Source of the DNA: Stylophora pistillata
Taxonomy: Eukaryota
DNA: 64,000 nucleotides
NCBI RefSeq assembly: GCF_002571385.2
Contig: NW_019217867.1
Location: 297,739 to 361,738 of the forward strand
Reading direction: 5' to 3'
The translations under genes were made by a program, and so were the position numbers. The notes below the pieces were generated by a model. The model worked only from the letters and a program-made list of their open reading frames with translations. It had not been told where the DNA came from and did not search any database. Shown piece by piece: positions 1,553-36,903 of the stretch (positions are counted from its first letter, which is position 1; each line of letters starts with the position of its first letter).

Positions 1553-1672
1553 AGAGTGATTTGATCGTTCGGGTGAGCGTGGCCCTGAGAAGGACTGTTG
1601 TCGGTAGTAGTGACTTACACTTGAACAACGAACTTTCTCAGAACTTCACTTACCTGAAAGATCAGACTACTT
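1553..1672. repeat. Degenerate inverted-repeat interspersed element, probably derived from a Penelope-like terminal repeat
   Basis: GATCGTTCGGGTGAGCGTGGCCCTGAGAAGGACTGTTGT is imperfectly complementary to ACAACGAACTTTCTCAGAACTTCACTTACCTGAAAGATC. Confidence 0.35.
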
Positions 1673-1860
1673 TATCATTAACTTATGTGTCCTTCCCTTG
1701 TATGGCCGAAGCTTTTAGTCCCTTGTTGGCTGTAGTATTCAGGCCCCTTCATATGTGAGAAACCTGATGAAGATAGAACGAAAGCGCCACGTTTTGTTAA
1801 ACACGTGCGAACGATTACATGCGGTATTTGTTATTGGTTTTATATTTTTACTTTATCTAG

Positions 1861-2029
1861 ACTAACGATATCCAGAGTCTTTGGTCTTTCTTGGAAAATG
1901 GTTTGTTACCTTTTGTCTTTGACAAGAAGTGGTATAACGGTGATGAGGACAAATCAGATGGCTTCACTGACGACAAGTACTTGTATGTTATTGGTATGCC
2001 ACGCCTTAGACAACTCAGGTCCAAGAAAG
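1861..2029 (+). CDS. PKD1L2: PKD1L gene, penultimate exon (start of the TOP/polycystin domain)
   Basis: Acceptor TTTATCTAG|ACT; translates TNDIQSLWSFLENG...VIGMPRLRQLRSKK (conserved GxPRLRQxR); donor G|GTATG, phase 1. Confidence 0.88.
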
Positions 2030-2233
2030 GTATGCCATTGAAATGCTTTTCTATGACTTCCATATTGTTTTAAACTATTTTTAGGACTGTTTGATTTAAA
2101 AGGCCGTTGCACTAGGGACGTTGACAAGATTAATTGAATTCAAATCCGCTTCGGAATAAATGTAGCACAAACTAGTTGCTGTTACATTTGATTTACTACA
2201 GCGGGTGAAGCTTTCCCTTTTTTTTGTTTGAAG

Positions 2234-5529: not shown

Positions 5530-8500
5530 ATGTGGCTGACGTTTTGTGATTGTTTTAGTAAGAATAAATAAGGTGCCGGATTAATTTCCTTTTCAGCAAA
5601 GGAGTCCTTGATCGGGGATGTGAACTAATTGTTCTAGTACTGAGGACCGATCACAGCTGAGTCCACTCCTAAGTCAGTAGGCACCAAATAGTGCCACACA
5701 AATGAGGATTCGACACTAGTAGAGTTAGTCAGCTGTCGTAATTTCTATTTCTAATTAAATTCAGCACCTGCCTTGTTCGAAGTCCTGGTTACCAGTTACA
5801 AAAACATAAGTTGATCGAACCATCGCCGGTGATGCGAGAAATTACATTGCTGTGATCTTCTGCATTATTGATAAAATCAGCTTGAATGGTTGTGTGTTTC
5901 GAAAATAAATCACATCTTCAATCAATATCAGCACAAAACTGATGAATGATTTTCCAGCTCTTATCTGGAATCCATAGATCTCTTTGCTTCTAGTTTTTAT
6001 CACAAGCGTTTTTAGATAGGGTTTCTTATCCTACGACGATTTGTAGGGCGTCTTTCACTTTCTATGTTTCCTTTCAATAATTCTAATGCATAAACATAAA
6101 CTGATTAAGTCAGCCCGTGCTGTTTGTCACTCCTGATAATTCAGTTTCGTGCAGTGGAGTCCTTAATCGTATGGCAAAGCAGCGCGTTTTCCTCTGATCA
6201 ACGTTTAGCCATTGAGTCCCACATTTTACAAATGACATCAAGGCGAAATGATTTACATCACCTTCTCATTGCATGGGTAAACATTCTAGTATCTTAACTA
6301 CCAATGTCATGCTAACGTAACAAACCTCGAAAAAAGATTTTTTTTTAAAAACTTGAACATATTATCCCATTGAAATTTACGTTTATCAGTTAATTAGTGT
6401 TGAGTATGCTAACATTAATTCTATGACTTGCCAATTCTTAAACCGTCTTTTTTACGCGATTTACTCAGTGCCTTTCATTATGTTTCAGATAAACGCTGAA
6501 AAATTATTGATTCGACTCGCTAGCGAGTAAATTGGTTATATCAACTGAGTTCAAATTGTAAATTGGCCACCGTTAAGAGTTAAATAGCTGACGTTTCGAG
6601 CGTTAGCCCTTCTTTAGAGCGAAATAATCGCTCATTCATTCGCTCTGACGAAGGGCAAACGCTCGAAATGTCAGCTATTTAACTCTTTATGGTCGGCAAT
6701 TTACAATTTCAACTTGGTTGATAAAACCAAATTACCTTGTTACCACCGGCACAGCGCCACAGTTTCTTTAGAAAGTTACCCCATTTATTCATTTGTCTTT
6801 TGACCGCTAGCGAGTAGTCTAAGCAGATGATTTTATTAGAAATCATATGGTGCATTCTTTACAATGAGGCAACTTTGTTGAGTGCATTCTTTACATTGAG
6901 GCAACTTTATTGCAGTAGTTAACATTGTTATTCTAGAACCAGTGAAAATTATCCATATTTTATAGACGCCCTGTATACATCGACTGAAATATCGGGTCTT
7001 CAATAAAATACCTTTTGTCTTTGAGGAAAATTAAAGTCATGAATGACTTAATTTACCTAATAAAAGGGTACCAAAACAAATCAAAAGATAGGTTAAAGGA
7101 TATCGCCCAATGACTTCTTTAGTCCTTGTATGTTAATAGAACGATAGATTCAAAATATACGCCGTTAAATTGTGGTAATCCTCTTACATTCTTGCTATTT
7201 ACGACTGATAAGTCTTCGGCAATGTTAACCGAAAATGCATTGGTAGTTAGTCAAATTCAATCGAAAGCTTAATTCACCAGTCTGTGTAATATTATGGACC
7301 TTGTTGATAAATTAGCTGAAAAATAGTAGACCCTCTCTATATAAAATATCTATTCAGTTAAACTATTAAGTTTCATTTTTGTTTCAGATCGGTGTGATTC
7401 CCTTGCTTATTCGAGGTAAACCCCTTACAAAATTAATACCTTTCACCAGATCAGCCTGACATATGCCAAGTAACCAGATCAGGAGAATGTTGTTTCAAAA
7501 CGCAGCGTCAACAAAGTTCTCGAACGAAGTCACATGGATGCACGCTGACATGACTCAAACCATCTAGTAACGTAGGCTGACTTTAGTCCTCTGAGCATGC
7601 ATTTGCGTTGAAAGAATAGGGTGGTTTTTTCGAGAAAAGACACGGATAGGTCTGACCTTTTAACGCGGAGATGTTGAGCCATATTTCCTCTTTAAACTGC
7701 AACTAAATTTTTGAACAAGCCTCAGAGTTAGTTTAGTCTAGTGAAGGAGAAGTGATAGGAAAGAATAAAGAAAATAATAAAGAAAATAATAAAGAAAATA
7801 ATAAGGGTTGTTGTAATGGGGCCCGGCCATCGATTCCTTATTTGCAATCCTTAAATTTTTCATAATTGATTAACTGTGTTTTTGGTCTCTTTTTTGTATT
7901 CTCTTGCTGACGGAAATCTTTTGAAACAGGGAATATTGCGAACTGTTCAGATGCGTTAGGTCTCTCAACCAATAAAATCGCTGATGACTCGATATCTGCC
8001 ACCACTTGGCAGCCTGGAAGGAGTGATCCTTGGTATGGTCGGTTGAACAACCAATCACGACGCAGTTGGTGTGCAGCTGTGGTTGATGATATGCAGTATC
8101 TTCAGGTTATTAAAACATTAAGAAAACGTTACTAGTGACTTTAGTACATGTTACAGCATTTCAATACTAATAACCAACCGGATATCTAATGACTAAACGA
8201 TCAATAGAATTACATTGGGATGAGATTTTGCAACCATCATAAACTTGCAGGCGAAAGCATTAGCTTCGCAATTTAGATTAAAAGTATCTATTTGCATATA
8301 GATTGATTTGGGTCCTAAACTGCGGTTAATAACTGCGGTAGCCAGTCAAGGAAGTCATAACTATGACGAATGGGTGACTAGTTATAAACTCTCATACAGC
8401 ACAGATGGCGGGAAATGGAAATTCTTTGGAAAAGGCAACATACCGGAGGTGAGACGTTACCATGTTACGGCGTGTATTCGCGAATGACGCGTTTCACTTT

Positions 8501-11500
8501 TTTGCCGTTCGAGAAACAGCACAAACTCGTTCTCATGGTCCTCCCCCCCTCCCCTTTGAGAAAGTACCCTAGTAAGGCGAAAGTTTATCGGAAATAAGAT
8601 ATATTTTACCAGGCACCTGGTAATGTTTAGGGTTTCGTAGCTTTGATATTATCGCTTACACGTTGTGAATCTAAGGCTTAGTTGTACATAACATCTTTGT
8701 TCATCGTTAAGTTAATTCATACATTTTGAGTTACCTTTTTAAAGTAACTTTCGATTTAGATTGATTCAATTTGAAGTCCGTCATTTTCTCGATCTCGTTT
8801 GTCTTATTGTCGCCTTTCGTTGTAGTTCTCATTGTGTTTATTTATGATTTACTTTGGGCCGAATCAAAAAATCCCATTTTCAATGTACTTTCTTCGCACG
8901 ATTCGGCCCCGTTCGTCCTTAAAATCGCTGCTTAAAACCATTTTTCTTCCAGTCTTGAAATCTGGTCGCATATGAAGGCGTTTAACTGAAAATAAAAAAA
9001 AAAAAAAAACTAACACTACCGACTTACACATTGAGCTTGGAGAACATGTGCGCTATATCCCTTCCCTTTCACAACCATAAAAAACCATAAAAAATCAGAA
9101 AAGTTAGCGATGTACTGACATTAAATTGTTATTTAGATATTAGGCCTCTAGAAAAATTCGTTGTTTAATTTTAAATCGATATCTGCTAAATGTCTGTATA
9201 ACTAGTCGAATATCGAGCTAGTTGAGGTCTACTCAGGAACGTTACTGCCATGTTGAAAATGCACTCGAGATTTAAATTGTCTATTGGTCGAGAATCCATC
9301 CTCCCTATGGCGTTCTTTGTTTTACAAGGGCACGTAACCAGCTGCAACCAGGGTATTTTCTCGAGGGAGGGAGAGAGAGGACACTGGGAACGAGGCTGAA
9401 AACAGCAGGATAGTGAGTTTGCGATGGCGGTCAGCAGTATTTCTATATCGTTAGAAAAGGCTACTCTGTATTCAACCTCGTTCCCAGGGCCTTTTCCCAT
9501 GATTGGGGGTCCCACCCCCAGGTGAGGGAAAAAGCCCTGGGAACGAGGTTGACTCTCTATTGCCGCTGTCCGCTTTGAAGAAACGTAGCTTCTGATATTT
9601 TTTTAATTAATAACGATTTATGTGATGTGGTTACTGCATTACCCGATTAAAGGGAATTTTTTTTGAAAGACTCCTTCGTGATACAACGGCTTATGCACAA
9701 ATCTATGCTTAATTATTGGAGCCAAAAACCGTTCAATCGTTCCAAGGCGATAAATTTGTTCTGATGATACAGATTAATTTACCATGAACCCAAAAGGGAT
9801 ATAAAATTAAAAGATACCAGTGAAAATAAGGTAACAACGTTACGATATCAGATGAGATAGAAAACAATAAGGGAAATACTCTTGGGAACGTTTATGACGT
9901 GTATACGTAGGATGGAAAATGATTCGAACGCTCACTTCTATCAGGTGAGAAAAAAAAGATCAAACTAAATCATAATTAGGACGATGTGTATCCTCTCAAT
10001 TGTTGATTCATTTCTTTACTCTTTCGTCAATCCATTGATTTATCAGAAATGAAAGGCAACTACACCCGGAAAAGTTTATGACGCTTACACGAAGATAGGA
10101 AACGATTCCACATCTATTATTGACTTACTATTTATCCAATTGCCTGCTCTCATATTGTCGGTTTTTTTCCAAGATATTTGATGCAAATAAAAATCGGGGA
10201 ACTGGAGTGAAGCACCAAATAAATCCGCCTATCGTAGCTGCGGCCCTACGGTTCTACCCAGTGACGTGGGAGGGTGATATGTGTATGAGGGTTGAAGCAT
10301 TTGGATGCGATGGTGAGTTTACCACATTTATATCGCTCCATTTATATAGTGAGTAATCGAAAAGATCTTTCAATTTAGGATAATAAGAGGACTATCTTAA
10401 AAGAAAAAGACCGACAACCTCTACTTTCGTATCACAAAAGAAGTTGTCAGACTGGGAAAATTATAGCAATATTCAATTCTGAAATGTCAAACTAAAGCAT
10501 TCGATGAGTAGCACTGAGTAATGGGATATATAAGTGAATGATATAAAACGATGACATAGACTGATTGCAAGCTGTGACAGGCTGTGCACTGGATTAATCC
10601 TAATTGGTGATTAAAGGATCATCCTTTAAAACCATCACCTTTGCAAATCACCCTAAGCGATTTACTTTGCAGACATAAGCAATTTATTTTTAGACATAGT
10701 GAGATCGGATCTTGGCTACGCAACACCAACGGAGACTATAGGGGACAATCACAAGAGCTTAGTCGCAAATTATGTTTCTACAGCTTACTCAGAAGCGTTA
10801 GGGGTGGAAAATAGTAGTGTGATTCAAGATAAATATCTGACAGCGTCTCACCATAAGTACGCTTACGATGCACGAAAAGGAAGACTCTATAACTTGGAGA
10901 ACGCATGGTCAGCTTATCCAAGAGCGGGAAACTTCTTTGAAATCTCCATCGGAAGACAGCTGAGCATTATTACAGCTGTAGCCACACAGGGTTTCAAGAA
11001 TAAATATCACGAAGCCTGGGTAATAAGTTACAAGTTGAGTTACAGCTTGTGGGGAGACGAATGGATGGAATACATTGATGATGGCGAAGTTAAGGTCAGT
11101 CTGGTCTATCAGAGGCGGATACAGGAGTTTTTGATTGGGGGGGGCCCAAACTTTGGTTCAGAAAGGACTGTTGGACTCTTTGAGGCAAATTACTTCTCCC
11201 CCACACACCCTCCCACCAGTCGCGGTTACACGTTATAATTCCTTGGCCGCTTACCGTTTATTTGGATTCATAAAAAAGTCAGCCAGTTAAAAGTGATATA
11301 CGATCATATCTCAAAGTTGTAAGCGTCAGGTTTGATAGGGGGGTGCGGACCCCCAGACCCTCCCCCTGGATCCGCCACTGTCAATCCAAAATTAAAATCG
11401 AAAACGAGTGATCATTTTGATATTGAATAACTGATAAATGTTGGAATGAAATTTTTGAAACGTACACCATTCTAGGAGATTTTTCCGATTTGTTTCCTTT

Positions 11501-14500
11501 TAGGGGTAGAAATGTCTGGAAATTTCTCGGCTGGTACACCAGTTATTTTAATTAATCACAAAAGTATTTCGCGCGCTCTCTAAAGACTGAAGATTTCTTT
11601 ACCACAAAGAGATACTAAGTTTACAGTGGTAACGATTGAAATATTAATACAAAACTTATTATCGGAGAAATTAGGGTCCTAAAAGCGAGTAAAATTTGAA
11701 AATAAACACAGATACCGTTCAACAATAAGTCAGTCCCTATCACCTTAACTTTTAAAGCTGGAATGTTAGTTGAAAATTCAGAATCAAAGTTTTCCTCTCC
11801 TTTTTTTTTTTCAGATATTTCGTGGCAACAATGATCCCAACACAGTAGTAAAGAATTACCTCCGACATAATATAACAGCATTATGTGTACGTTTTTGGCC
11901 TGAAACGTATTATAATCGCCCTGGATTGAGAGTTGAGTTGTACGGCAGTAAAGGTGACTCAATTCATATTTTCACAACAAATTCAGTTTAGTTTAGTCAG
12001 AATCCAGTTCTTTGATAATTTTTGGGACTATTATAATGGCATCGTTGTCTCCAGGATAGCCATGAAAAGACGAGACTGTCATTCTTAGCGCCGTATGCCA
12101 TTCGTCCTCATTAGTTTCTAGATATACTGGTGGAAAGAGTCATCTGTGCGTAAAGCTTTACTATTCATATACTTAGCGCCAATCTTTCAAACCTTCAATT
12201 CTCATAAAAATCTTTTGAATTAGATTTGTAAGATGAGAGTTATGTCACATTTTCATCCTCCAATGCTCATCAATTACGCGGGATACCACAATAATAGGAT
12301 GTATAGACAAAATTTTCCTAAAGCCTTTTGTAAAATGTGCAGATGTTTGCCAAAACCCTCTTGGCGTGGAGAGCGGAGACTTATCCAATGTACAGTTCAC
12401 TGCATCGAGTCAATCACCAGCTGAAAGTGATGCCTGGAATGGTCGCTTAAACAAGGGGAAGGCCTGGTGCGCGGGAAGAAATGACGATAAACAGTATCTT
12501 CAAGTAGATTTAGGAAGAGTTTATACGGTAGCGCGAGTCGCCACCCAGGGTCATCCTGTCAATCTGCAGTGGGTGATCCGTTATGAAGTGGCTTACAGTA
12601 TGGACAACATATTTTGGAGGAAAGCTCTTGACGAAAGCAAGTCAAAGGTTGGATTTATGATTCATAATAGGTTCAATGATTCAGCACAGGAATAAAATAA
12701 GGACTAACAAACATCCTGGTTAAGAGAAGTATCTCTTGTGCAAGTGGGGTAGCACCGAGTCTAAAGTTTAGTGGTGTCCAACTTTTCTCTCTCTTGGCTC
12801 AGGTGAAAATATGTCTTGTCCAGTCTGACACTATATCTCTTTCCTTCTGTAACATTCTCCTCACTAGAAAATTAATTAACATTCAACGAAAAAAGTTATT
12901 AAATTGCATTAATTAAGACCCACGTTTCCATTCCCTTTATGAAAAGGAAGTTTTTGTCTTATTAATTCCGAATGGTGATGAAGGAGAAATATTATGATTC
13001 ATTAGCGTTTTACGTATCGCCTTACGTCTGCATGTTTTACAGACCCTGAGTGGCAATACAGATCACAACACGGCGAAGGAAGTCCAATTCTACAAACATG
13101 TAACGGGCAGATTCCTGAGATTCCTTCCTGTGGAGTGGAATGAAGCAATCTGCATGAGAGTAGAGGTCTACGGTTGTGAAGGTTCGTGATTCCTGAACAC
13201 AAAGTGGCTCAGTGGTTCGAATCCCGTAAAGGCCTGATTTTTTTTAGGTCTGATTTTCGCTATTGCATAAATAGCGCTCTCTACTGCGAGGATCGTGCAT
13301 CATACGTATGTTTCCGTATGTTACGCAAATTTCTGTTGAAAAGTAAGAGTCTTTTCCCGAGTCTTTTTTTCTGTTGTCTGTTTGGAAACTGCCTTTGCTT
13401 GAATTTCCACACAATGTGATGTGAAATACGAGCCCGAAGTACGTCCTGTATGTACATAAGGGCACATGATCACAATACAATTCCATTATCAGTAGATTAC
13501 GCACATTGCTTACAGTGCATCACGCCATAATCAATGGATGGCCGCTATTCATCTCAGTATCTATGAAAGCTATATCAAAACCTAACATTTAGAAACATTC
13601 CTGGCAATGCGTTTCCCCTAATTATAACAATAACAGTATTTAATGAGGGAACAGACCTGGCAAAAACGGTTTCAGTGGGGTCCCTCCAATTTTGCCGTTT
13701 CATCTGTTATGAATGATATATGATGTTGCTGGACTGTTGGTGTGAGCCAGCTCGATCACCGCGCGCAAACGGGACGCACCAAGAGTCTGATGGGTAACTT
13801 TTATTCGAGGCGATGGTCACTCTTTTCTTAATGACTCATTCAACCCTAAGCAGACGTTCTTAGATATCCTATCGGTAGGCGTGTGTGGACTTACGGGACT
13901 ACTGACCTCGGTTGATTAAATAAAGAAGACCGCTCGTTGAGGACTCTAGGCAAGGTCAGAAGAAAAATCCAAACACAATTGGCGATGGCAATTACTGTCC
14001 GAGAATGAAACCCTATTATAATGGTCAGGGGAAAAATCACTCAAAAGCAAAACTATATTTGTGGTCTTCGTCACATGACAAAACAAGGTTCAGAAGACTC
14101 GTATTAGGACTTCAAGATAACCTAACAAGCCTAAAAAATCCCAAACGCTTTTCCAGAACACTTCTAATTTTAGTAGTTCATCAGTGTCGTCACATTCCGC
14201 CCAATGACTTAATTACTTAGCGCATGTATTTCCAGAATGCGCACATCCAGTTGGTATTGAGCGTGGAGTGGTACCAAATCAAGCCTTTTCAGCCTCGTCA
14301 TGGTATGACGTGGACCATGAGCCTTGGCTGGCAAGACTCTACAGTAGAGACGGCGAGGGAGCCTGGTGCGCACTGGAAAATGATGGGAAACAGTACCTAC
14401 AGGTCGATCTGGCTCAAATACATATCATAACGGGCGTTGCTACTCAAGGAAAGTACGAAACATCTGAATGGGCAATTCGTTTCAGAGCTTGGGTGACAAA

Positions 14501-17500
14501 CTTTAGCTTATCTTTCACTGACGATCATATGCTTTGGGTTAACTACACTGAGGATGGAGTTTCTCCGAAGGTGAGCGTAACTTAGAAATCAAGATCAGAT
14601 TCAAAGATCCATACGAATATAATTTTTAGCAGATAAAATTATCAGCTGTGCTTTGTCTTTGATACCCCTGTCCTGTTTTCCCACATTAAAAAGTGCCATT
14701 CTTGTCTGATATCTGCGTGAAAAGAGAAGTCTGGCTCGTTATACTTGCAGATGCCTTGCAGAGGGGATTTCCTTTCTAGAAGAAAGAGTGTAGGAACAAT
14801 CTTGTATTTTCTAAAATAACATTTGCAAAGTAACTCTTTTTTTCAACCTTTTAGGTCTTTGATGGAAATTCACAGAGCATTCAAGTTATTCGACATACAC
14901 TTTTGAAAAGAATAACTTCTCGACAAATAAGGTTTCTTCCGGTTACGTGGTTTGGATGGACATGCATGCGGGTTGAAGTTTTTGGATGTAAAAGTTAGTA
15001 AGACGTTCTTGAACAAATTTAGTTAGAAGAGTGGGGCGGATTATTACTCCACCCAAAAGGCACCATGGGAGGCCTATATATGTATATCTATGGAACAAGA
15101 GACAAACATTCATGACAATTATTACAATGCCATGTCATTTTTTCATGCAAAAAAATCAAAACTCGTCTTGTTTCGTGGCAGATTACAAGCAAATTACAGT
15201 ACCTTGGTCCACAATAAAAATTGATTGTAACTTCACTGGCGATATAATTAGTTCAGATACATCTAATCGGAGTGGAGTTGACTCCAAAAAAAATAAAATG
15301 AATAGGAAAGACTCGAAAATAAGTATTAACTAGCATTTCAAATTATACTCTGGCTATAAAAGTGCCTGGTGGCCGGGCAATTTTTAAAGAATTTCCGTTA
15401 AGATTTTTTTTGACAAATCTCATGAGGATATAAATATTTGTTGAGAAAAATTTATGTTTTTTTTTTGGTTGATCTTCATTTTACTCAGCTTGCTCTTCTG
15501 CTATTGGCATGGAAGATTTTCACTGGCCATCTGAGTCGATTCTAGTTTCGTCCGTTAATTCTGGACATGATGCTGCAAAAGCCAGACTTTTCAATACATA
15601 CACATGGCTTCGAGGCCATAATGATAAGGACTCTTTTCTGCAAATTGGAAATGGCATAGATGAATAGCGCTTTACTGCTGTTGCAACTCAAGGCCACTCG
15701 ACCATAAAGTCTGCCGTGGTCAAATTCCAATTGTCTTTTTCCAGAGATGGTTTACATTGGTTTTACCACCGAGAGAATGGCGAAGTCAGGGTAAAGAAGT
15801 TTTTATTCCTCTATTTATTTTGTATCCTGGGGCTATATACGACGTGGGGCAGATAAATGTTTGTGATACGTAGGCTACGAAACCCAGTTAGTTTCATTGA
15901 CTGCGCTGATCATGATGAGAAGTCAAGGCTTTATAAAGATCCAGGCACTTCGTGATAACAATTCACGACCGTTTCCACGAAAACAGAGATATATCTAAAT
16001 CTTAATCATTTTATTTGATTTTATGATACTGTAGTTCAATGATATTTTGTCATTGGTATTTTTTTCCCATTAGTTCAAAATATTTTATTTTACTTTATTT
16101 TAGATGTTTATTGGGACGCCGCTCGTCAACACTGTGGCAAAACATTACCTTGAGCGGACTGTCACGGCAAGCTTCGTGCGCTTTTGGCCCAAAGAATGGG
16201 TTGGGAGACCCAATATGCGGGTTGAATTATACGGATGCCAGGGTTAGCTTTTATTTTTCTAGTTTATCACTCTAGTATTGATTATTAAAACTACAAGGTT
16301 GAATTCAGAGAATAACTCTCTTAGCTTTCCAGCATATTAGCTCCAAATTAAAAGCCTTTCCAAGATCTCCCAGCGAACCGACGATGCAAAATGTTCATGT
16401 CTTTCCAGCTGTACTTAGTTTCTTTCTTTAAACTTAATTCTAACAAAAGTTCATACAAATTAAGTAGGTGAATTTTTCTTTTCAGTGTACTCGAGATCTG
16501 TTGATTTCTCAAACCTGACTAGTATGGCAGACGGTTATCCTAATTTTTATACTTGCGACGGATCTGTTTTAACGCCCTGGCACGGACGTTTGGCGATACA
16601 CAACAACTCCCATGATGGCCCCGGATCAGCATGGTGTGCAAAAAGCAATGAAACAAACAACAACCAGTTCCTTCAAATAGATTTGAAAATGACCAAAGTT
16701 ATTCAGGCCATCGCAGTTCAATCTCATTTACCAGGGGACAAATGGGTGAAAACTTTTAGCATTAGTTCCAGTCTTGATGGGCTGTTTTGGAAGCAATACA
16801 CAGAATGGGGAAACGTGAAGGTGAGCTTAAACTGAAGAGAGCATCCAATGTCGTGACGGAAAGAGGTACTCGTGTAAACTTTCAAAAGTGATTTTCATAA
16901 TGCAGGTTACACCTAGCTGTTGTTTTAATAATAACAAGATTACAATACATTTCTCTTCAACAGAGTGAAAAATGTTGGTTTTCCATACCTGAGGAAATAT
17001 TGATTGGAAGTAACCGTATTATGTGATCCTCTGTATAGGTATTTAATGGGAACACACATCGACATAGTTTGGTCAAAGTGAGTATTAAATATAATCTCCG
17101 TGCAAGATATCTTCGTTTTCACCCAAAAACCTGGAACAACCACCCTTGTTTAAGGCTGGAAGTATTTGCTAAAGAAGGTAAGGAATCATGATTTATCACG
17201 AAGGCCATGAGCCACTCCTTGGTTTTTGAATTTTTATGGACCACAGCATCAAATGATCATTTATCAAGGAATAGTACAGTAAACTATGCCATATAGCTAC
17301 CTGTTTTACGCCCATTCGTACGTCGTTCTTCACGTGTTGATGCATGGTCCATCGTTATGAATACAGTGGACGTTCGTAGTAACTTCCCTTTGCCCCAGGA
17401 AATGGGAAAAAAGTGACTGCAGGTTGAAATTAGCACAGAACACAAATTTAACTTTTTGATCACTTTGTGTGATTACTTTGTTGTGGTCAGTGTTCTGTGA

Positions 17501-20500
17501 CTCTATCCATGTAAGCAGATATGAAGTGAGGATCGGAATTAATTTTTCTCTTGCAAGTGGAGAAGAACACGACACCGTAACTCCAATGTGTTAAACTGAC
17601 CATAATATGATACAAGTCTGACAGATATCTTGCCCTTCGGTGCCTTTTCTTTCCAGACTGCATTGATCCCCTGGGAATGGAGAGTGGTCAAATATCTGAT
17701 AAGGATATTACAGCGTCAAGTGCTTTGAGGGTGAATTACGAACCTTGGCTGGCCAGGTTGCACAGTCGGCTAGGAGAAGGTGGATGGTGTGCAGGGGTTT
17801 GTTGGCACTTTAAGCTTTCCTCATAAATAAAAGCTGGGTGTAATAGTCATGAGAAAATCAGGATCTCTTAGAATGATTGCTCTGGTAATTTTAGAGAATA
17901 CGTCGATTCTTGCCACCACAATCCCTTGCGTGATTATCATAGTTGATCGCAGCTGAATTTCTGAAAAGGACGAGTACCAAAGGAAACTTAGCTAGAATGA
18001 AACGAAAGGTGTAAAATGTTAGTTTAGGCCCGAACATGAGACAAAGGCAGATGGTAGACACCATTGAGTTTTGGAACCAATCTGTTGAATTCTCTGTTGA
18101 ATTGAATGCTCAGTCAATACGCCATAAGGAAGGCATTGGGGAGCCTTGCCATGAATTACAAATATGTCGACATAACTAGCGCAGATAGCCCATCTTATTC
18201 TGCTTTAATTTCTCTTTCACCGTTGATTTTCTTTTAAAATATCAATAGTTTTGCTAATACAATACAAGAGTCGGTGTCAAGGTCGAGAAACTCGATGTAT
18301 CATCATATTAATGTCTTCAGAGAAGCGATGAGAATCAATATTTGGAGGTTGATTTGAAACACCCGTACCACGTGAGACGAGTAGCAACGCAAGGAAAGTA
18401 TTCAGTACACGGATGTACTATCCAGGACGCATGGGTTACAAGCTACATGATGCAGTTCAGACGTGATTCACTGGACTGGTGGAACTACACCGAAAATAAC
18501 GCCATAAGGGTAAGGATCCCTTTGTTGCTATAGTTATACATCAGCAAGGACTGAATATAGTATCGTATAGCTCTTTTATTTGTCTTCTAATTCATGGAAG
18601 ATACTGTACTAATCCAATTAGATAAGTTGGTATTCATGTTGCCCTTACACCTTTGCCATNNNNNNNNNNNNNNNNNNNNNNNNNNNNNNNNNNNNNNNNN
18701 NNNNNNNNNNNNNNNNNNNNNNNNNNNNNNNNNNNNNNNNNNNNNNNNNNNNNNNNNNNNNNNNNNNNNNNNNNNNNNNNNNNNNNNNNNNNNNNNNNNN
18801 NNNNNNNNNNNNNNNNNNNNNNNNNNNNNNNNNNNNNNNNNNNNNNNNNNNNNNNNNNNNNNNNNNNNNNNNNNNNNNNNNNNNNNNNNNNNNNNNNNNN
18901 NNNNNNNNNNNNNNNNNNNNNNNNNNNNNNNNNNNNNNNNNNNNNNNNNNNNNNNNNNNNNNNNNNNNNNNNNNNNNNNNNNNNNNNNNNNNNNNNNNNN
19001 NNNNNNNNNNNNNNNNNNNNNNNNNNNNNNNNNNNNNNNNNNNNNNNNNNNNNNNNNNNNNNNNNNNNNNNNNNNNNNNNNNNNNNNNNNNNNNNNNNNN
19101 NNNNNNNNNNNNNNNNNNNNNNNNNNNNNNNNNNNNNNNNNNNNNNNNNNNNNNNNNNNNNNNNNNNNNNNNNNNNNNNNNNNNNNNNNNNNNNNNNNAG
19201 GGGATATCGCGACGTAAACGGTTAATAAATATCCTACTTCAAGTTTCCCAAAGAAAAACTCGCGAGAAAGCAATGGCTTCATGCAATCCGTCGAGAGGAA
19301 GGAAAAAGCTTCAAAGTCTTGGACTCAACCATGGTCTGCTCGCACCATTTTAAAATGGAAGACTTGAAGAAAAGTATTGCGGGCAAAATATGCCTTCAAA
19401 CCAATGCTGTACCTTCGGTATTTCAGTGGCGTACTTCGCTGCGCAAAAAAAGCCTCCACCTCAAAGATTCACTAGTAAAACAACTACTCATCAATCATTC
19501 AGGGATTTATTCATGGTGTGCACACTCGGAAAGCAGCGTAAATGATAAATCGAATGAACAGCTAGAGAGTCAGATTACAACTGTAGAACCTAATGAAAAG
19601 AATGTCGAAAATTAGGCAAAGACAAAAGATGTCGAAACTCAGACCGATTTGGTCGAGTCGAAGGATGCATGCATTCAGAGTGATCAGAGTGTTGTCGCGC
19701 TTGTGAAACAGTATGAAATGAGAATAGAAGAGCTCTAAAGAGAAATAGAAAGCATTTCAAAGAAGAATGAATGTTTAAAAAGTAGACTTTTTCTATTGAA
19801 AGATTTCGCGCCGACAATTCTGCTGTGTCCTGCTACACTTCGTTTCCTAACAACGCTATTTTAATGGAAATCTACAATTATCTAGACCCCAGAGCGTGTT
19901 ATATGATTGTTTTATTCCGCTCTGGTAAACAGAGGCATCTTCTGAAGTGAGTAGTTCCACATACTAGATTCAGAGAATTTGACGGGAACATGTCGTTTAG
20001 CGGCGGAGTGTGAACTTGTGTTGTTTGCCGAGCGCAGTTGTTTTCGTTTAGAATAAAGATTATTGGGATCAGGATCAATGATGTTTTTAACCTTTCCGCT
20101 CTTGATGTATTAAAGTATAAGAAATTAGGTCAATTTAAGTGTAAGTAATCACAATTGACAATTTTCTCAAGCAATCAAAACACCTCGAAGTACGCATCTT
20201 GTGCTCGAAACTAGCCTTGTCACAAGCTTGCTTTTGTCTTTAAACCTTTCGCTGGGTCACCTCTGCCCTTCAACCATAGTCTCAAGTCCTCAGTCTTGAA
20301 TTGTGAGAGATTTCTATCTCCTAAGGAAGCTCCAGGAATGTCATTTTCGGTTAAAAAGCTCGAGGAATTGTGAGAGTTTGTCTAGTCGCGTCGCCATGTG
20401 TTGCCCGGGTGGCCTCGCTTTCGTGAAATTATTCATAACCAGTCTCAGACCTCCATCAGATTTTCCGCCATTATGGCAAAGGTGTATGATGTTGTCATTT

Positions 20501-22674: not shown

Positions 22675-22706
<32 letters not shown>

Positions 22707-25700
22707 TAATAATAATAATGATAATAATAATACCTGGTACTCACCCGACAGGCCTAAGCCTATGTATGCGGTTTATATAGCGTCATATAAGGAACCGCGC
22801 AGCCAGTCAGATTGCTGGAAACTCTTTGCTCAGCTCTGAAATTCTACTAAATACATATATTATATCCTGGTACACTTTGACTAGGGTTTGCCCGCAATGA
22901 TGTTGATGTGTACACTGAATTATTTTACCAATAAAGTCTACCTTAATAATAGTGTCGAAACTAATGATAACTACAACAGTGATATTTACAGTGATATTTA
23001 GACTTTTTTATCGTTTCTCCTTCTCATCTGCAGCTTGTTTCCAACCTTTGGGAATGGAAGACTTCTCAATACCGAGCAAGAACGTTGATTCTTCTGTAGC
23101 CTCAAACATATACAACGTAAGACTGAACTATGCACAAAGAAACCAGTTCGTCGGAGGTATGTTACGATTCAGTCACTTATTAGTGACTTTTCCTTGTGTG
23201 CCATTTCTTTTCTTGTTCTTACTCCTTTCTAACGTCATCTGTGATCTATTACTGTACAGCCGCATAGCAATATGGAGGCTATTTTACCAATGGATGGCAA
23301 ATGTTTTTTCTCAGAAGTCACTTTCTTTTCGTTAGGGAACTTAAGTTCACAAACCTTGATGGTTTCAGTTAGTTTTCATACCTACTCGTCTCACTTCTTC
23401 TTCATTAATCCTATAGAGAATGATACATGGGCGTGTGTAGATATGGAATTTCTTTTCGAGTGTTCAACCTCATGGCTCACGAGTGAGACATCGAGTTGAG
23501 CGCGATTTTGATTTCCAAAAGGAATTCTACATAATTGTTTTTGTTGTTGAATAAACATAGTAGGCCTTTATTGACAAGAAAAGTTGGCTTTTATTAATGA
23601 ATGAAAAAAAGGTACCACAATCTGCGGAAAAAAAATTCGTAAAGTGTTGTGAAGTTGTCTATTTTCGTCAGTTCTCAGCCAGGAGAAATGCTATTGCCAA
23701 ACTGTTGGTTTTTTCATAAGTATTTTGGTTTTCTTCAGCTTCTCGAACATTTTGAACGTCACTGCATGTCTGTAAGCGATGCGAATTCTTCAGCGTTGTT
23801 AGCAGCGACAATCCGAGAAAATTTCGATAAACTACCTCGGATTGGGCATAGTGAAGGCTTTCCCATTGATTTACAAACCTGACAAAGTGGCGCGAAGGCG
23901 AGTGACGTGTCAGCAGCTGATTGGCGATGTACAACAAGTGAAAAAGTATCGTAATTCTAACGTGTTCCAATTACGGCTTTTCTAAGGGCTGTAAATCCTT
24001 GTAAAACACAACAGTTTAAATGGTAATACATTTCATATCCACGTGTATTAGCAAGTAGATAAACGAAAAATCGATTATTCCAAGAATCTCTTTGTTCAAA
24101 ATTAGTATTTCTGGACCTTCTCCGTCCGAATGAAATTAGTACATTACATTCAAGTAAGTTTTCATGCTTTTCCTCTTTTTAAAGAATACTGTCTCTTCGT
24201 TCCAGGGCGAGACAAATTTATCTTACAGATCGACTTAGGGCATTTTAAGACTGTCGCTGCAGTCGCTACACAAGGCAGATATCGTGGATCGCATTTTGTT
24301 AGAATCTATCGACTGGCGTTTAGCAGACTTGAGGGTGAATGGTTTTATTACAAAGAAAATGGAGAAGTAAAGGTACCTCACGCCTCATTTTTGAATAACA
24401 GTCATCAAAGTTGCTTCTGTTAGGGCCAATTATGCGTCTGAGAACTTTCATATTCAAAAATGAATCGCCAAATGCGAAGTGATTATTGTTAATTAAATTC
24501 AGTCTGAAAAACTCCACATATCCTTTTTTGAAAAGAGTCACGCCAAAGTTGGTAGCATATTTTGTGCTCTCCAGAATTGAATTTTTCTCTATCACGTTTA
24601 TCATCACTTCCTCAGAAGCATTGACAAAAATGCGAGGCAGTCATTTGGAAATTCAGCACGCCTGCTATAATCAGCTAGCGCGAGGTGAATAGCGAGATCA
24701 TTCCTCGACCAATCAGAGCGCGCACATCTTTAAATCATCGCAACAAATATAATTATTTTTATTCTTTATGTAAAAATCACCTTTCAATCAACTGTTTTTC
24801 TATAAAGGAAATACAAGGCAACACTAATGCTGACGGAACAGTTCTAAAAATCCTGCATTATCAAGTTGTCGCCCGTTATGTCCGTTTTGTGGCAGTAGAG
24901 TGGGTCGATAATGTTTGCTTGAGGGTGGAAATTTACGGTTGCGAAGGTAAATTTACCTGGACGAGTTGTTTTTGTTTCATTCTCTCAGTTTGATTTTTTT
25001 TCCAATTTATCGGTAAAAAATGAACTTGTTTGGTACAATTCTAACCCTAATTCCATAATTTTCATACACTCGAGTACAGGAAAGGCGTAATAAACTCAAT
25101 GTCTGTCTTGTGTATTGATCATTAATTTTTAAAGAATCGAAACAATGTCTCATCTGAAAAAAAGTACTTGGAGGTCATTCTCACCAACTTAGTGAAGAAA
25201 CCTCAGTTTATCTGTAGAAAAGAAAAAATAAGGCGAGAGAGAGAGAAAGAAAGAAGGAGGCGCGCGCACGCGAGAGAGAGAGATCGGCAGTTGAATTGGG
25301 ATGGGAGAAAAAATTTTTTTCACAGTGGTAGTATTAATATCTCTATACTATAATCTTAGCCTGGTCAGATCCCCTTGGAATAGGATCAGGATTAATAAGC
25401 AAAAGCAAAATGACCTCATCCAGTACCTCAGGACCTGGGCATGAGCCATGGTTGGCAAAATTAAATACTGTGTTTGATACCATGGGCTGGTGTGCTGCCC
25501 CTTCTGATACATCACCTTACCTCCAGATAAACATGGGACGAGTTGTATCTCTAACCCAAATCGCGGTGACAGGAAAGAGCGGTAAAGGAATGGTGTGGAA
25601 ATTTAAGTTTTCTTTAAGCGTCGATGGTGGCTTCTGGCGCATTTATAAGACAGTCTCTGGAGAAAAGGTGAGTAACTTAGTTTAGTACTTACTCTCCTCA

Positions 25701-34700: not shown

Positions 34701-36903
34701 TTAGGTGAAAGGAAAACTATTACAGCTATCGCAACTCAAGGAAATTCTCACACGTATAAAGACTCTCGTTTAAGAGAGTATTACATACAGTACAGCGACG
34801 ATAGCTCCAACTGGCTGGACTACACATTTGAGGGCCAACAAAAAGTGAGTCACTGTAATGCTAGACAAACGAAGGGGAAAAAATCAATAAAACAAGTAAA
34901 CTTAAAGGATAGACTAAATTAAGTGGTAAGGTATACCATGATTGAGCCCGTATCGAGGATTTGTAGGACACATCGATCTGTAGTATGATGTGAGAGAATG
35001 TGTAAATGTAAATGACACTGGCATTCACTGGAGACTAGTGGCAATCTAGGCCACTTAACCTAATAAGGGTCATCGAGAAAAACTTCCTGAATACCCCAAG
35101 GAGAAGGATGTCGATATGTGATGCTTATACGTACTGATGATGTAAATGAAAATGGTAAAATTTCAAGCCTAGTACTTCAAACGTTTTATCATAAACCTAT
35201 ATAATGCTTGTGGTAAGCTATACTGTTCGACGAGGTACATAGCGACAAACTCCCTGGTAAATTTTAAGCCTAGTGATTTAAGTAGGGGAAAATGTTTTTC
35301 AGGGGATAATACAGACAAACTCAGATATCGAAACAAAAAAAGACTCCGAATGCTTCAATAAGGCATTGGGATTAGTATTTCCGCACGCTCTTTCACTGAC
35401 TGGGCTATAGTAGACTGTTAAAAGCTGATAGTTTCGAAAGAAACTTTTAGAGGCTGCGTCGGTGGGAGTACCGAAATAATTTGGATATATCAACAAAGTT
35501 GAAATGGTAAATTGGCCACCGTAATCGCTTTTGTAATCGTTACGCTGGCCAATTTACCATTTCAACTTTGTTGATATATCCAAATTATATAGTAGATTGT
35601 TGGCAAGTTTAGCTGCTGAGGTGTATGGAATCAAACTTCCTGCATACTGCGAGGACAGGAATGTCAATATTTGTCGCTTATGCCCCATGATGGTGTAAAT
35701 GAGGGTGGTAAATTTTTCGGCCTCGTGATTTAAGTAAAGGAAGATGTTATTCAGTGAATGACACGGGAAAACTCGAAAAAGAAAAAACAAAAACAAAAAC
35801 AAACAAATCTCCGAGCTCCTAGTGCTCCCAGTAGGAGTCGAACTTACCACCTTTCGAGCAGTACTTGGGAAGTTCTACCACTGAACCTTAGCAAACTTAT
35901 GGTGAGATTAGCCGTTTGACAGGTGACAACGTTCCTGCATACGGTGAGGGTAGGGATGTCGAAATTGAAATCTTTTTGAGTAATGATTATGAAGATGGTT
36001 ATCGTAATTACAGAGGATGTTAGTCAGTTAATGACACAGGCACATTTGGCGAAAAAAAAATCCTATTGCCCCATTATGAATCGAACCTACGACTTTTCGA
36101 ACAACACTTTGGTAGCTCTACCACCAAACTATTGGAGACTCGAAGGCCGTTTAACTAACTAGGCCGTTTAACTAGCGCGCTGTGACAGTATTGATAACAA
36201 TTATAAAAACTGATATTCCGCAGCCAGAGAACGTAAGTATTACATAATGCTGAGTGTAGTTTTTAAATTCCATTTCATCTTTAAGGTATTTGATGGTTAC
36301 AAAACGCAGGGGGCTGATATAAGAAGGAAGTTTTTTCCTCAGGCCATAAAAGCGAGGTACATCAGACTACGAGCCACTAAATGGTACGATTATATTGCCA
36401 CCAAATTGGAAATTTACGGTTGTGAAGGTAGGAACAATAAGTTTTAAAATCAGCAAAGCAACGTTGCCACTTTAACTAAACAGTACTAACTTAACTCATT
36501 TCGAAGGACATGTCTCTTTCGCGTTAATGATAAAGCTGTTCTTTACGCTGTCGCGCATTTAACGAGTTGATTCATCAACTGTGTAGAAGTGATCAGTGCA
36601 CTAAGGAAAAAAATTGTTTTTACGTCCGTAAAAGGCAACCAAAAAAAAATATATATATATATTTCTGTAGGTATGTATGTATATGTTCATTTACGAGAGA
36701 ACAAGAGGTCAGGTACTCTTGTTGAATTTTTTTTTATCTATTTAGCATGTATTTCCTCATTTGTTACGGAATTTCTCGTGGAATATCTTTTGATAAAAGT
36801 TGATGCAATCAAACATCGGCGTCAGTGCGATAAATCCCTCGTTGAAATACGGAAGGATGACGTCAGCAAAGTGAATTCAAAGTCAAGTCAATTTCCAAGC
36901 TAA
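5530..36903 (+). CDS. Large multi-exon gene for a predicted secreted protein of 14 tandem F5/8 type C (discoidin) domains, ~2,190 aa; carries disabling lesions in this assembly
   Basis: Exons from 7388 to 36903 have GT-AG boundaries and join in frame. Each domain is bounded by phase-1 introns. Domain motifs: C..PLG.E, PW.ARL, WCA, YLQIDLG, VATQG, WVT.Y.L.YS.DG..W, C.RVE.YGC. In-frame TAG at 15665-15667. The first exon (5530-5557) is tentative. Confidence 0.85.
6529..6790. mobile_element. Palindromic non-autonomous element derived from a Penelope-like terminal repeat, with minimal hammerhead motifs
   Basis: ~95-bp inverted arms at about 6529-6623 and 6639-6734; related copies at 35420-35590, 55800-55970 and 57460-57690. 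Confidence 0.7.
6642..6675 (+). ncRNA. Minimal type I hammerhead ribozyme motif
   Basis: GCT-CTGACGA-A-GGGC-AAAC-GCTC-GAAA-TGTC-AGC: stem I GCT/AGC, stem II GGGC/GCTC, GUC cleavage triplet. Confidence 0.6.
7388..7415 (+). CDS. 28-nt micro-exon encoding the end of a putative signal peptide (IGVIPLLIR-G)
   Basis: TTTTTGTTTCAG| acceptor and GAG|GTAAAC donor; the phase-1 end joins exon 7930 in frame. Confidence 0.6.
7930..10312 (+). CDS. Discoidin domain 1 (exons 7930-8105, 8302-8448, 10174-10312)
   Basis: NCSDALG..PWYGRLN..SWCA..QYLQ|IDLG..AVASQG..WVTSYKLSYSTDG|IFDAN..CMRVEAFGCD; GT-AG sites. Confidence 0.9.
9473..9551. mobile_element. 79-bp MITE with terminal inverted repeats and a near-perfect 10-bp flanking duplication
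   Basis: CAACCTCGTTCCCAGGGC...GCCCTGGGAACGAGGTTG; flanks ACTCTGTATT and ACTCTCTATT. Confidence 0.7.
10784..11953 (+). CDS. Discoidin domain 2 (exons 10784-11094, 11815-11953)
   Basis: AYSEALGVE..AVATQG..WVISYKLSYS|IFRGNND..GLRVELYGSK. Confidence 0.9.
11110..11380. mobile_element. Non-autonomous DNA element (hAT-like termini)
   Basis: CAGAGGCGGATACAGG ... CCTGGATCCGCCACTG imperfect 16-bp terminal inverted repeats; no clean target-site duplication. Confidence 0.55.
12343..13181 (+). CDS. Discoidin domain 3 (exons 12343-12647, 13043-13181)
   Basis: VCQNPLGVESG..AWCA..YLQVDLG..VATQG|TLSGNTD..CMRVEVYGCE. Confidence 0.9.
13203..13300 (+). mobile_element. Internally deleted tRNA-derived SINE fragment
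   Basis: GTGGCTCAGTGG (A box) fused to GGTTCGAATCCC (B box), followed by a T-run and SINE-like body. Confidence 0.45.
14236..14993 (+). CDS. Discoidin domain 4 (exons 14236-14570, 14855-14993)
   Basis: ECAHPVG..PWLARL..GAWCA..VATQGK..AWVTNF|VFDGN..CMRVEVFGCK. Confidence 0.9.
15489..16242 (+). CDS. Discoidin domain 5 (exons 15489-15790, 16104-16242), with an internal in-frame TAG
   Basis: CSSAIGMEDF..FLQIGNGIDE*RFTAVATQG..FSRDGLHW|MFIG..MRVELYGCQ; TAG at 15665-15667. Confidence 0.85.
16486..17177 (+). CDS. Discoidin domain 6 (exons 16486-16820, 17039-17177)
   Basis: PWHGRL..AWCA..FLQIDL..WVKTF|VFNGN..CLRLEVFAKE. Confidence 0.88.
17657..21234 (+). CDS. Discoidin domain 7 (exons 17657-17796, 18321-18509, 21096-21234)
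   Basis: DCIDPLGMESG..PWLARL..WCAG|RSDENQYLEVDL..AWVTSY|DFSGN..CMRVEIYGCK; the N gap lies in the second intron. Confidence 0.88.
18660..19198. other. Assembly gap (N run)
   Basis: 539 consecutive N. Confidence 1.
19199..19895 (+). mobile_element. Decayed THAP-domain DNA transposase fragment (Harbinger/ISL2EU-like)
   Basis: SYFKFPKEKLARKQWLHAIRR..VCSHHF..NAVPSVF is a THAP C2CH finger with its AVP(T/S)xF motif; disrupted FSIERF..YTSFPN follows. Confidence 0.75.
22056..22100. repeat. (TAA)n microsatellite
   Basis: Direct reading; a second tract lies at 22675-22731. Confidence 0.95.
22102..22344 (+). mobile_element. Retrozyme-like ~240-nt non-coding element containing a hammerhead ribozyme, embedded between (TAA)n and (TA)n
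   Basis: More GC-rich island between microsatellites, ending in a canonical hammerhead; its 5' start TTGATATAG extends stem I when joined to the 3' end. Confidence 0.7.
22298..22343 (+). ncRNA. Canonical type I hammerhead ribozyme
   Basis: ACTGCA-CTGATGA-GGCC-CAGAA-GGCC-GAA-ACAG-TA-CTGT-C^TGCAGT; all core nucleotides and three stems intact; predicted cleavage after C22337. Confidence 0.9.
23034..24946 (+). CDS. Discoidin domain 8 (exons 23034-23156, 24206-24372, 24808-24946)
   Basis: ACFQPLGMEDF..|..LQIDLG..AVATQG|EIQGN..CLRVEIYGCE. Confidence 0.88.
25360..25889 (+). CDS. Discoidin domain 9 (exons 25360-25667, 25751-25889)
   Basis: AWSDPLG..PWLAKL..WCA..YLQINMG|TFIA..CMNVELYGFD. Confidence 0.88.
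26352..27191 (+). CDS. Discoidin domain 10 (exons 26352-26683, 27053-27191)
   Basis: ECTMPLG..PWMGRL..GAWCA..LQIDLG..AWVKNF|VFPGN..CMRLELYGCQ. Confidence 0.9.
27469..28481 (+). CDS. Discoidin domain 11 (exons 27469-27767, 28340-28481)
   Basis: ACESPLGMEN..ARLN..YVQVDTG..WISKF|IFQT..IQLELYGCE. Confidence 0.88.
28710..28815. repeat. (GAT/GAC)n trinucleotide low-complexity repeat, intronic
   Basis: Direct reading. Confidence 0.9.
29326..29778 (+). CDS. Discoidin domain 12 (single 453-nt exon)
   Basis: ACSKSYG..SWCA..LQLDFG..GIATKG..YSVDC..CLRVQVFGYK; phase 1-1, no internal intron. Confidence 0.88.
30185..31376 (+). CDS. Discoidin domain 13 (exons 30185-30516, 31256-31376)
   Basis: GCDKDLGME..PWNARH..GAWCA..AWVTKF|ELTGN..CLRMELYGCQ. 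Confidence 0.9.
31544..32111. mobile_element. Truncated Penelope-like element with an inverted terminal duplication and a 13-bp target-site duplication
   Basis: ~217-bp near-perfect inverted arms at 31557-31773 and 31855-32073 encode a GIY-YIG C-terminus (FKVLKKC..FDCLVNEMLYIKQLTPSLN); AGGGCATTAAATG at 31544-31556 and 32099-32111. Confidence 0.85.
32008..32046 (+). ncRNA. Minimal hammerhead ribozyme variant (U3-A8); mirror copy on the - strand at 31584-31621
   Basis: CCC-TTGATAA-T-GGCG-TCATGAAGT-CGCC-GAAA-CGTC-GGG. Confidence 0.6.
32314..36427 (+). CDS. Discoidin domain 14 (exons 32314-32471, 34695-34844, 36286-36427)
   Basis: ACLEPLGVENF..QFLQ|IDLG..AIATQG..YSDD..W|VFDG..KLEIYGCE. Confidence 0.9.
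32520..33800 (+). mobile_element. Decayed Ty3/Gypsy LTR retrotransposon, 5' part (LTR, PBS, gag, protease)
   Basis: Putative LTR TG..CA at 32520-32773; PBS-like TGGTGTTAGAAGTGG at 32776-32790; gag from ATG 32802 with stops and frameshifts; knuckles CRCCGRKH..CPALGKKCNRCRKDNHFAKKC; protease FEIDSGS*CNV. Confidence 0.85.
35420..35590. repeat. Palindromic Penelope-terminal-repeat-derived element, hammerhead centre deleted
   Basis: AATTTGGATATATCAACAAAGTTGAAATGGTAAATTGGCCA ... TGGCCAATTTACCATTTCAACTTTGTTGATATATCCAAATT. Confidence 0.7.
35690..36190 (-). mobile_element. Two tandem degenerate tRNA-derived SINE copies
   Basis: Minus-strand heads GGTTCAGTGGTAG..GTTCGACTCC (~35825-35890) and TTTGGTGGTAGAGC..GGTTCGATTC (~36068-36133); shared ATGACAC.GG flank. 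Confidence 0.5.
36746..36903 (+). CDS. Probable terminal exon of the discoidin gene (collapsed 15th-domain remnant)
   Basis: Polypyrimidine tract with TTTAG|CA TGT, phase 1 like the other domain starts; ACISSFVTEFLVEY... ends at TAA. Confidence 0.5.

What the first reader, a model, noticed from the sequence alone, without database searches (positions are those of the whole stretch)
7388..36903. A 14-discoidin-domain secreted protein with no other domain
Seen: the exons splice in frame to ~2,190 aa made only of 14 diverged F5/8C domains after a hydrophobic N-terminus; no transmembrane exon was found. Established: F5/8C domains bind phospholipids, glycans or collagen and usually occur as one or two copies alongside other domains (factor V/VIII, MFGE8/EDIL3, neuropilin, DDR). 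Inference: this could be a highly multivalent extracellular lectin or adhesion protein (mucus, skeletal matrix, or microbe/symbiont recognition). The ORF track fragments it completely.
Basis: partly seen in the sequence, partly recalled or inferred. Interest (0 to 1): 0.7.

Follow-up and report, generated by a model that had tools for sequence, protein, structure and literature searches.

The report
Coral fourteen-discoidin protein beside a polycystin
A stony coral gene encodes a likely secreted protein made only of fourteen discoidin binding domains in a repeating three-domain pattern, kept in the same order in another coral and two sea anemones and echoed in the neighbouring polycystin-type gene, so it likely works as an ancient many-handed extracellular linker whose partners are untested.

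Summary
Real, with corrections. The locus is one gene of Stylophora pistillata (exon identical to RefSeq LOC111326318): predicted signal peptide plus 14 F5/8C domains, 2,144 aa, no transmembrane segment. That stop splits the RefSeq annotation in two, but another dataset reads TAT there. An Oculina orthologue is 68% identical and collinear in 14 of 14 domains; Actinia and Nematostella (two copies) keep the same architecture. New here: the domains form an (ABC)4-AB triplet repeat (p=5e-5), every third domain is the most conserved, domain 7 keeps an unpaired cysteine, and the F5/8C array directly upstream, likely the ectodomain of a PKD1-like polycystin, shares the triplet phase. Discoidin-only secreted proteins are known (sea-urchin nectin, six domains), so this is a longer, independently built variant. 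Bulk RNA shows only traces of the 5' half; spliced RNA supports the 3' end. Skeleton- or symbiont-specific roles look unlikely as the ancestral function. No ligand was tested. The scan had not noted this gene; it noted an unrelated octopus discoidin mucin.

The parts
6232..6276 (+).
   Evidence: same start as RefSeq XP_022785987.1; Oculina N-terminus
7388..7415 (+). Second exon, rest of the predicted signal peptide (IGVIPLLIR)
   Evidence: helix 2-22 in the model
7930..10312 (+). Domain 1, class A (exons 7930-8105, 8302-8448, 10174-10312)
10784..11953 (+). Domain 2, class B (exons 10784-11094, 11815-11953); RefSeq uses an earlier acceptor adding 30 aa that Oculina lacks
12343..13181 (+). Domain 3, class C (exons 12343-12647, 13043-13181)
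14236..14993 (+). Domain 4, class A, the most conserved; Trp-bearing extended loop (exons 14236-14570, 14855-14993)
15489..16242 (+). Domain 5, class B (exons 15489-15790, 16104-16242)
15665..15667 (+). In-frame TAG (codon 694) in the reference; null allele or assembly error; the point at which RefSeq splits the gene
16486..17177 (+). Domain 6, class C (exons 16486-16820, 17039-17177)
17657..21234 (+). Domain 7, class A, with a fifth cysteine in the loop kept in 5 of 5 orthologues (exons 17657-17796, 18321-18509, 21096-21234); its second intron holds a 540-N gap and a THAP transposon remnant
23034..24946 (+). Domain 8, class B (exons 23034-23156, 24206-24372, 24808-24946)
25360..25889 (+). Domain 9, class C (exons 25360-25667, 25751-25889)
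26352..27191 (+). Domain 10, class A (exons 26352-26683, 27053-27191)
27469..27767 (+). Domain 11, class B, first exon
28340..28481 (+). Domain 11, second exon
29326..29778 (+). Domain 12, class C, single exon
30185..31376 (+). Domain 13, class A (exons 30185-30516, 31256-31376)
32314..36427 (+). Domain 14, class B (exons 32314-32471, 34695-34844, 36286-36427)
36988..36992 (+). Coding part of the last exon (completes Ala, then TAA); AATAAA at 37253, 37345, 37406
1..3759 (+). 3' end (PLAT, polycystin domain, channel) of the upstream PKD1-like gene, whose likely N-terminal F5/8C array lies outside the window and shares the triplet repeat

Best explanation
This is a single conserved gene for a 2,144-aa protein of 14 discoidin domains in an (ABC)4-AB repeat, predicted to be secreted, that likely acts as a multivalent extracellular linker in a specialised matrix made by few cells or at a particular life stage. 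Shown: architecture, orthology, triplet repeat, class-specific loops and cysteines, kinship with the upstream array. Inferred: the very short linkers hold the domains in a compact chain; the class-A domains (1, 4, 7, 10, 13), which are the most conserved and (4, 7, 10, 13) carry an extended loop, likely provide the main binding sites at regular intervals, for glycans or proteins rather than phosphatidylserine; the unpaired loop cysteine of domain 7 would tie the chain to a second chain or a partner; the gene likely arose by tandem duplication from the same triplet array as the ectodomain of the neighbouring PKD1-like gene.
For: Orthologue 68% identical over the whole length, 14 of 14 domains collinear. 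Domains group by position across four species at 13 of 14 positions in the tree (support weak for domains 3, 5, 8, 12). Period 3 p=5e-5 by permutation, period 6 p=0.03, periods 2, 4, 5, 7 p>0.7; positions 1, 4, 7, 10, 13 are the five most conserved (1 of 2,002 combinations). Class-B domains 2, 5, 11, 14 mostly lack both cysteines of the inner pair; domains 2 and 9 lack both of the outer pair; domain 7 has five cysteines in 5 of 5 sequences. Fold matches lactadherin C2, factor VIII C2 and neuropilin b1 at TM 0.89-0.93 per domain. Spliced Logan proteins cover domains 13-14 and the stop. Upstream domains 5-18 are in phase with the triplet (p=0.002), as is Actinia P0010 domains 8-20 (p=0.0003); 5 of 5 control arrays are not (p 0.44-0.96). 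Precedent: nectin, six domains only, in an adhesive secretion (passages).
Against: No ligand, location or secretion was tested; the signal peptide rests on hydropathy, a predicted helix and orthologues, and the Actinia model lacks its N-terminus. No RNA joint was seen for the 5' exons: three RNA runs gave zero or trace depth over them, and no transcript linking domain 1 to domain 14 was seen. The reference allele is a null. The three classes are not all recovered in any one tree: class C is missing, class A breaks up. The upstream sub-range was chosen after looking (bounded by the lectin exon and TSP1); all 18 domains give p=0.078.
Confidence: 0.55

Rival explanations
1. It is the soluble partner (tether or decoy) of the neighbouring PKD1-like polycystin in a sensory cell, the two triplet arrays binding each other or a shared ligand.
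For: Adjacent, same strand, shared triplet phase and shared class-B clade that excludes nectin and a transmembrane paralogue; the Actinia counterparts lie on scaffolds of identical length, 1,055,466; trace bulk expression; in Nematostella the three POU-IV targets exclusive to the hair-cell metacell are a coagulation factor/neuropilin-like gene, a CD59-like gene and polycystin 1 (passage), and a Ly6/CD59-like ORF lies 7 kb before the upstream array here.
Against: Tandem duplicates are neighbours whether or not they work together. The hair-cell gene (JGI 202575, scaffold_36) could not be mapped to these orthologues; the described hair-cell polycystin 1 has WSC, PKD and REJ domains with no F5/8C mentioned and lies on scaffold 353. 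That the upstream array belongs to the polycystin is itself inferred from a compatible splice phase; RefSeq ends it at an alternative exon.
Confidence: 0.2
2. It is a nectin-like galactoside lectin of adhesive, mucus or egg/larval coat, or a microbe-agglutinating lectin.
For: Same discoidin-only design as nectin; an Exaiptasia gene with five galactose-binding-like domains is up in the pedal disc, and a Nematostella coagulation-factor-like gene peaks in oocytes (neither mapped to this family).
Against: Nectin domains form their own clade and show no triplet; near-zero depth in bulk RNA is unlike a bulk mucus protein (tissue and stage of those runs unknown); fixed domain number and order across corals and anemones is unlike fast-turnover immune lectins (inference).
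Confidence: 0.15
3. It binds anionic phospholipid like lactadherin or factor V/VIII C domains and bridges membranes or vesicles.
For: Closest solved relatives are factor V, factor VIII, neuropilin and lactadherin domains; domain 4 has conserved aromatic residues in two tip loops.
Against: Domain 4 lacks the four-residue first-loop extension bearing the WW pair of factor V C2 (its membrane role is recalled); no EGF domain or RGD. Only domain 4 was aligned to these structures.
Confidence: 0.06
4. The locus is two shorter genes or a decaying pseudogene in this species, as the RefSeq split suggests.
For: In-frame TAG in the reference; RefSeq annotates LOC111326286 and LOC111326318 separately; RNA support seen only for the 3' end.
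Against: X2 reads a sense codon at the site; the second RefSeq half starts inside domain 5 with no signal peptide; one other coral and two anemones have full-length models; no frameshift in 34 exons.
Confidence: 0.04

Closest known systems
Sea-urchin nectin (Paracentrotus lividus, UniProt Q70JA0/A0A182BBB6; echinonectin recalled as its counterpart)
   Same: Secreted protein made only of tandem F5/8C domains (984 aa, six domains, 94% covered); described in an adhesive secretion and as able to bind galactose-bearing molecules (PMC7037938, passages).
   Different: 14 domains instead of six; nectin domains form a separate clade (support 97), have no triplet and 11 cysteines against 42-46.
Lactadherin/EDIL3, factor V/VIII C1-C2, neuropilin b1-b2, DDR, retinoschisin
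   Same: Same fold (TM 0.89-0.93 for single domains) and about 30% identity per domain.
   Different: No EGF, A, CUB, MAM, kinase or transmembrane part; two-domain superpositions give about 16 A rmsd, so the predicted packing differs from these pairs, with uncertain inter-domain confidence (pTM 0.61).
Unnamed anthozoan orthologues: Oculina XP_078358334.1, Actinia LOC116286593, Nematostella LOC5515249 and LOC5504709, Porites lutea fragment XP_073240261.1
   Same: Same 14-domain order; 68% (Oculina, whole length), 58% (Porites, domains 1-3), about 35-55% per best-matched domain (anemones).
   Different: All are automatic 'uncharacterized' or 'lactadherin-like' models; six accessions searched in full text gave 0 papers.
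PKD1-like polycystins (upstream neighbour; Nematostella hair-cell polycystin 1)
   Same: The neighbour's likely ectodomain has 18 F5/8C domains with the same triplet phase.
   Different: This protein has no PKD, REJ, GPS, PLAT or channel part.

Membership tests
F5/8 type C (discoidin) domain proteins, PF00754 | Profile match and beta-sandwich fold | tested here: met
   21 of 32 exon pieces hit PF00754; orthologue P0006 gives 14 stretches; model pLDDT 82, TM 0.89-0.93 to solved C2/b1 domains
Nectin / echinonectin | Signal peptide plus F5/8C domains only, no membrane anchor | tested here: met
   98-99% of the model covered by domains, hydrophobic N-terminus, ends at the last domain; signal peptide by hydropathy only
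Nectin / echinonectin | Six domains, orthologous to the nectin repeats | tested here: not met
   14 domains; nectin domains form their own clade and match no position specifically
Nectin / echinonectin | Galactoside binding and presence in adhesive or embryonic matrix | not testable with these tools
   needs glycan arrays and proteomics
Lactadherin / EDIL3 | EGF domains with RGD before the discoidin pair | tested here: not met
   no EGF family hit in exons or orthologues; RGD count 0 in all five 14-domain proteins
Factor V/VIII and the venom factor-V-like subunit that lends the GenBank model its automatic name | A-type (cupredoxin) domains before C1-C2 | tested here: not met
   only F5/8C families; the name reflects C-domain similarity only
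Neuropilin / DDR / discoidin receptors | Transmembrane helix and further domains | tested here: not met
   no transmembrane segment; spliced Logan proteins and orthologues stop after domain 14
PKD1-like polycystins | REJ, GPS, PLAT and channel domains | tested here: not met
   present only in the upstream gene

The most novel reading that the evidence does not exclude
Corals and sea anemones keep an ancient gene pair: a giant PKD1-like polycystin whose ectodomain is a triplet-repeat discoidin array, and next to it a secreted copy of that array, which serves as the channel's extracellular tether or ligand in a sensory cell, a cnidarian counterpart of a gating link.
Probability: 0.2. Interest if true: 0.8.

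Novelty: new variant of a known kind. Interest (0 to 1): 0.5.

Why it matters
A 245-kDa protein whose 14 domains have kept their number, order and three-step pattern since stony corals and sea anemones split (about 500 million years, recalled) is under a structural constraint that no paper found here describes, and it is hidden in the Stylophora annotation by one stop codon. Its kinship with the array in front of a PKD1-like channel offers a concrete candidate for an extracellular partner of a polycystin, testable by knockout in Nematostella. If it is instead a nectin-like glue or lectin, it is a candidate for cnidarian adhesion studies.

Tried and rejected
RefSeq's 30-aa extension before domain 2 and GenBank's Asp-rich exon between domains 11 and 12: absent from Oculina; the first has pLDDT under 50, the second is a microsatellite. 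A two-copy fold of domains 6-8 of the Oculina orthologue gave no answer (score 0.00). Mapping Nematostella NV2.19396/19400/3648/997 and JGI 202575 to the orthologues failed: no RefSeq ids in 10 supplementary files of PMC12549020, 0 papers for six ids; their expression rows are leads only. Best-identity pairing of upstream and Actinia P0010 domains fits the tree's register in only 7 of 18 cases. The promoter scan is bacterial and uninformative. No full-length Acropora orthologue appeared, which is no proof of absence. Scan look-ups by place and sequence returned nothing.

Full report
Observation. Reading the region and splicing by coordinates gives 34 coding exons, all GT-AG; every domain starts with a phase-1 acceptor and 13 of 14 end in a separate 121-142-nt exon. 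An exon of domain 10 is 100% identical to RefSeq XP_022786019.1 of Stylophora pistillata. The corrected model runs from 6232 to 36992, 2,144 aa, 98-99% covered by 14 F5/8C domains. A profile of the domain finds 32 + strand ORFs among 1,571 in the window, all inside the gene.

The stop. RefSeq splits the gene there into LOC111326286 (723 aa) and LOC111326318 (1,409 aa, starting inside domain 5); GenBank skips the exon. A contig of run X2, which covers introns and so is DNA, spans 13284-18650 with 11 differences and reads T at 15667, making TAT (40 of 184 substitution rows were shown). Oculina has His at that column. It is a null allele or an assembly error; I cannot tell which.

Expression. Over 3600-18650, raw RNA runs X21 and X24 (about 2% and 6% of each run read) and contigs of X10 gave no depth over most exon bins, traces in two (0.06 and 0.44 in X24), and no exon joint among the 15 of 59 joints shown. 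P0003 (295 aa, on 9 Logan contigs of at most 1,463 nt) runs through six exons that span 6.8 kb of DNA and differs at 4 of 295 residues, so it comes from spliced RNA of this gene or a close relative. A transcript through all 14 domains was not seen.

Conservation. Among 57 hits of 1,084-3,450 aa, Oculina XP_078358334.1 is 2,143 aa, 68% identical end to end, each of 14 domains matching its own position. Actinia LOC116286593 and Nematostella LOC5515249 and LOC5504709 also have 14 domains and stop within 3 residues of the last (longer X1 isoforms of the Nematostella genes add 16- and 64-residue tails). By best pairwise match 10, 8 and 7 of 14 positions agree; in a tree of the 70 domains 13 of 14 positions form a split, with weak support at four. 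A Porites fragment matches domains 1-3 at 58%, and many unnamed genomic fragments match the domain-4 exon at 64-87%. Other anthozoan, amphioxus and protist proteins carry 5-20 copies in other orders, so long arrays are common; this one is a fixed orthologous family.

Triplet repeat. Domains three apart are more alike than chance (3.3 points, p=5e-5; periods 2, 4, 5, 7 not). Class A (1, 4, 7, 10, 13; support 91/86) are the five best-conserved positions (1 of 2,002), and 4, 7, 10, 13 have a longer loop after the TQG motif, in domain 4 with conserved tryptophans. Class B (2, 5, 8, 11, 14; 84/66) mostly lacks the inner cysteine pair. Class C (3, 6, 9, 12) is not a split but groups at 87, where class A breaks up. 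Domain 7 has a fifth cysteine in its loop in 5 of 5 sequences. Linkers are typically C-x-x-C. AlphaFold on the N-terminal RefSeq half gave pLDDT 82 and pTM 0.61; single domains match solved C2/b1 domains, two-domain pairs do not superpose.

Neighbour. The window opens on the PLAT and channel exons of a PKD1-like gene. The 80 kb before the window (4,417 N) hold, on the same strand, 18 F5/8C domains, one further lectin-like exon, TSP1, PKD repeats and REJ. The TSP1 exon can splice in phase to the PKD exon, so this is likely one giant polycystin that RefSeq cuts up; no transcript shows it. Its domains 5-18 are in phase with the triplet (p=0.002; all 18, p=0.078), as are domains 8-20 of Actinia LOC116308982 (p=0.0003), whereas five control arrays are not; both sub-ranges were chosen after inspection. 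Trees put every third upstream domain with class B and pair upstream with Actinia domains in register, and separate nectin and a transmembrane paralogue at 96 (one short Actinia fragment dropped in 75). The two Actinia genes are on scaffolds of the same length; adjacency there is not shown.

Mechanism. Shown: architecture, orthology, triplet, class features, kinship with the upstream array. Inferred: secretion; a compact chain in which class-A domains present binding loops at regular intervals; covalent linkage through the domain-7 cysteine; restricted expression. I commit to a multivalent extracellular linker (0.55). Rivals: partner of the neighbouring polycystin (0.2), nectin-like lectin or glue (0.15), phospholipid bridge (0.06), split or dying gene (0.04).

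Literature. Passages read: PMC7037938 and PMC12472103 (nectin, six discoidin domains, adhesive), PMC6626399 (five-domain gene up in the pedal disc), PMC8846589 and PMC11811123 (hair-cell genes), PMC12549020 (passages and supplementary rows listing several discoidin-repeat and coagulation-factor-like matrisome genes, none mapped to this family). Coral skeletal proteome papers were seen only as listings. Ten searches showed no description of this 14-domain family or its triplet; supplements are not covered by those searches, and LOC111326286 was not among the ids searched.

Verdict. A real, conserved, uncharacterised gene; a longer, independently built variant of the discoidin-only secreted type known from nectin, with an internal triplet and a polycystin connection not found in print here. 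Interest 0.5.

Noticed in passing
G000:C84 about 245,000-301,494 (L003-L008 and window 1-3759): Likely one giant PKD1-like polycystin: 18 F5/8C domains, a further lectin-like exon (F-type look, label recalled), TSP1, PKD repeats, REJ, PLAT and channel; RefSeq splits it (LOC111326284, LOC111326285).
   Followed up: partly
L003:2-298, - strand (G000:C84 237,662-238,036): Ly6/CD59-like ORF (PF00021, E 7.5e-9) about 7 kb before the upstream array, on the opposite strand.
   Followed up: partly
window 43643-46957, +: Ankyrin-repeat gene whose 271-aa and 833-aa ORFs are in one frame, separated by a single stop at 44456-44458: a second possible null allele or assembly error. A shorter ankyrin ORF lies at 38878-40029.
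   Followed up: no
window 28581-28838, +: GAT/GAC microsatellite that the GenBank model reads as an Asp-rich exon between domains 11 and 12; absent from RefSeq and Oculina.
   Followed up: partly
window 18660-20050: 540-N gap followed by a THAP-domain transposon remnant (PF05485) inside an intron of domain 7.
   Followed up: no
window 32500-34100 and 31470-32110: Broken gag-like retrotransposon remnant (by eye, no Pfam hit) in an intron of domain 14, and two oppositely oriented fragments of a Penelope-like element (by eye) after domain 13.
   Followed up: no
window 55970-60900 (+), 61838-63700 (-), 49073-49387 (-): MFS transporter gene (PF13347); a retroelement with a weak GIY-YIG hit; a reverse-transcriptase fragment (PF00078).
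   Followed up: no
G000:C84 266,875-268,451, - strand (L005/L006): Fragments resembling a TRIM/NHL-repeat gene (by eye; the one piece scanned had no Pfam hit) nested in an intron of the upstream array.
   Followed up: no
P0185, P0182: Long F5/8C arrays also occur in the protist Fabomonas tropica (10 domains) and in amphioxus (19 domains plus a transmembrane segment).
   Followed up: no
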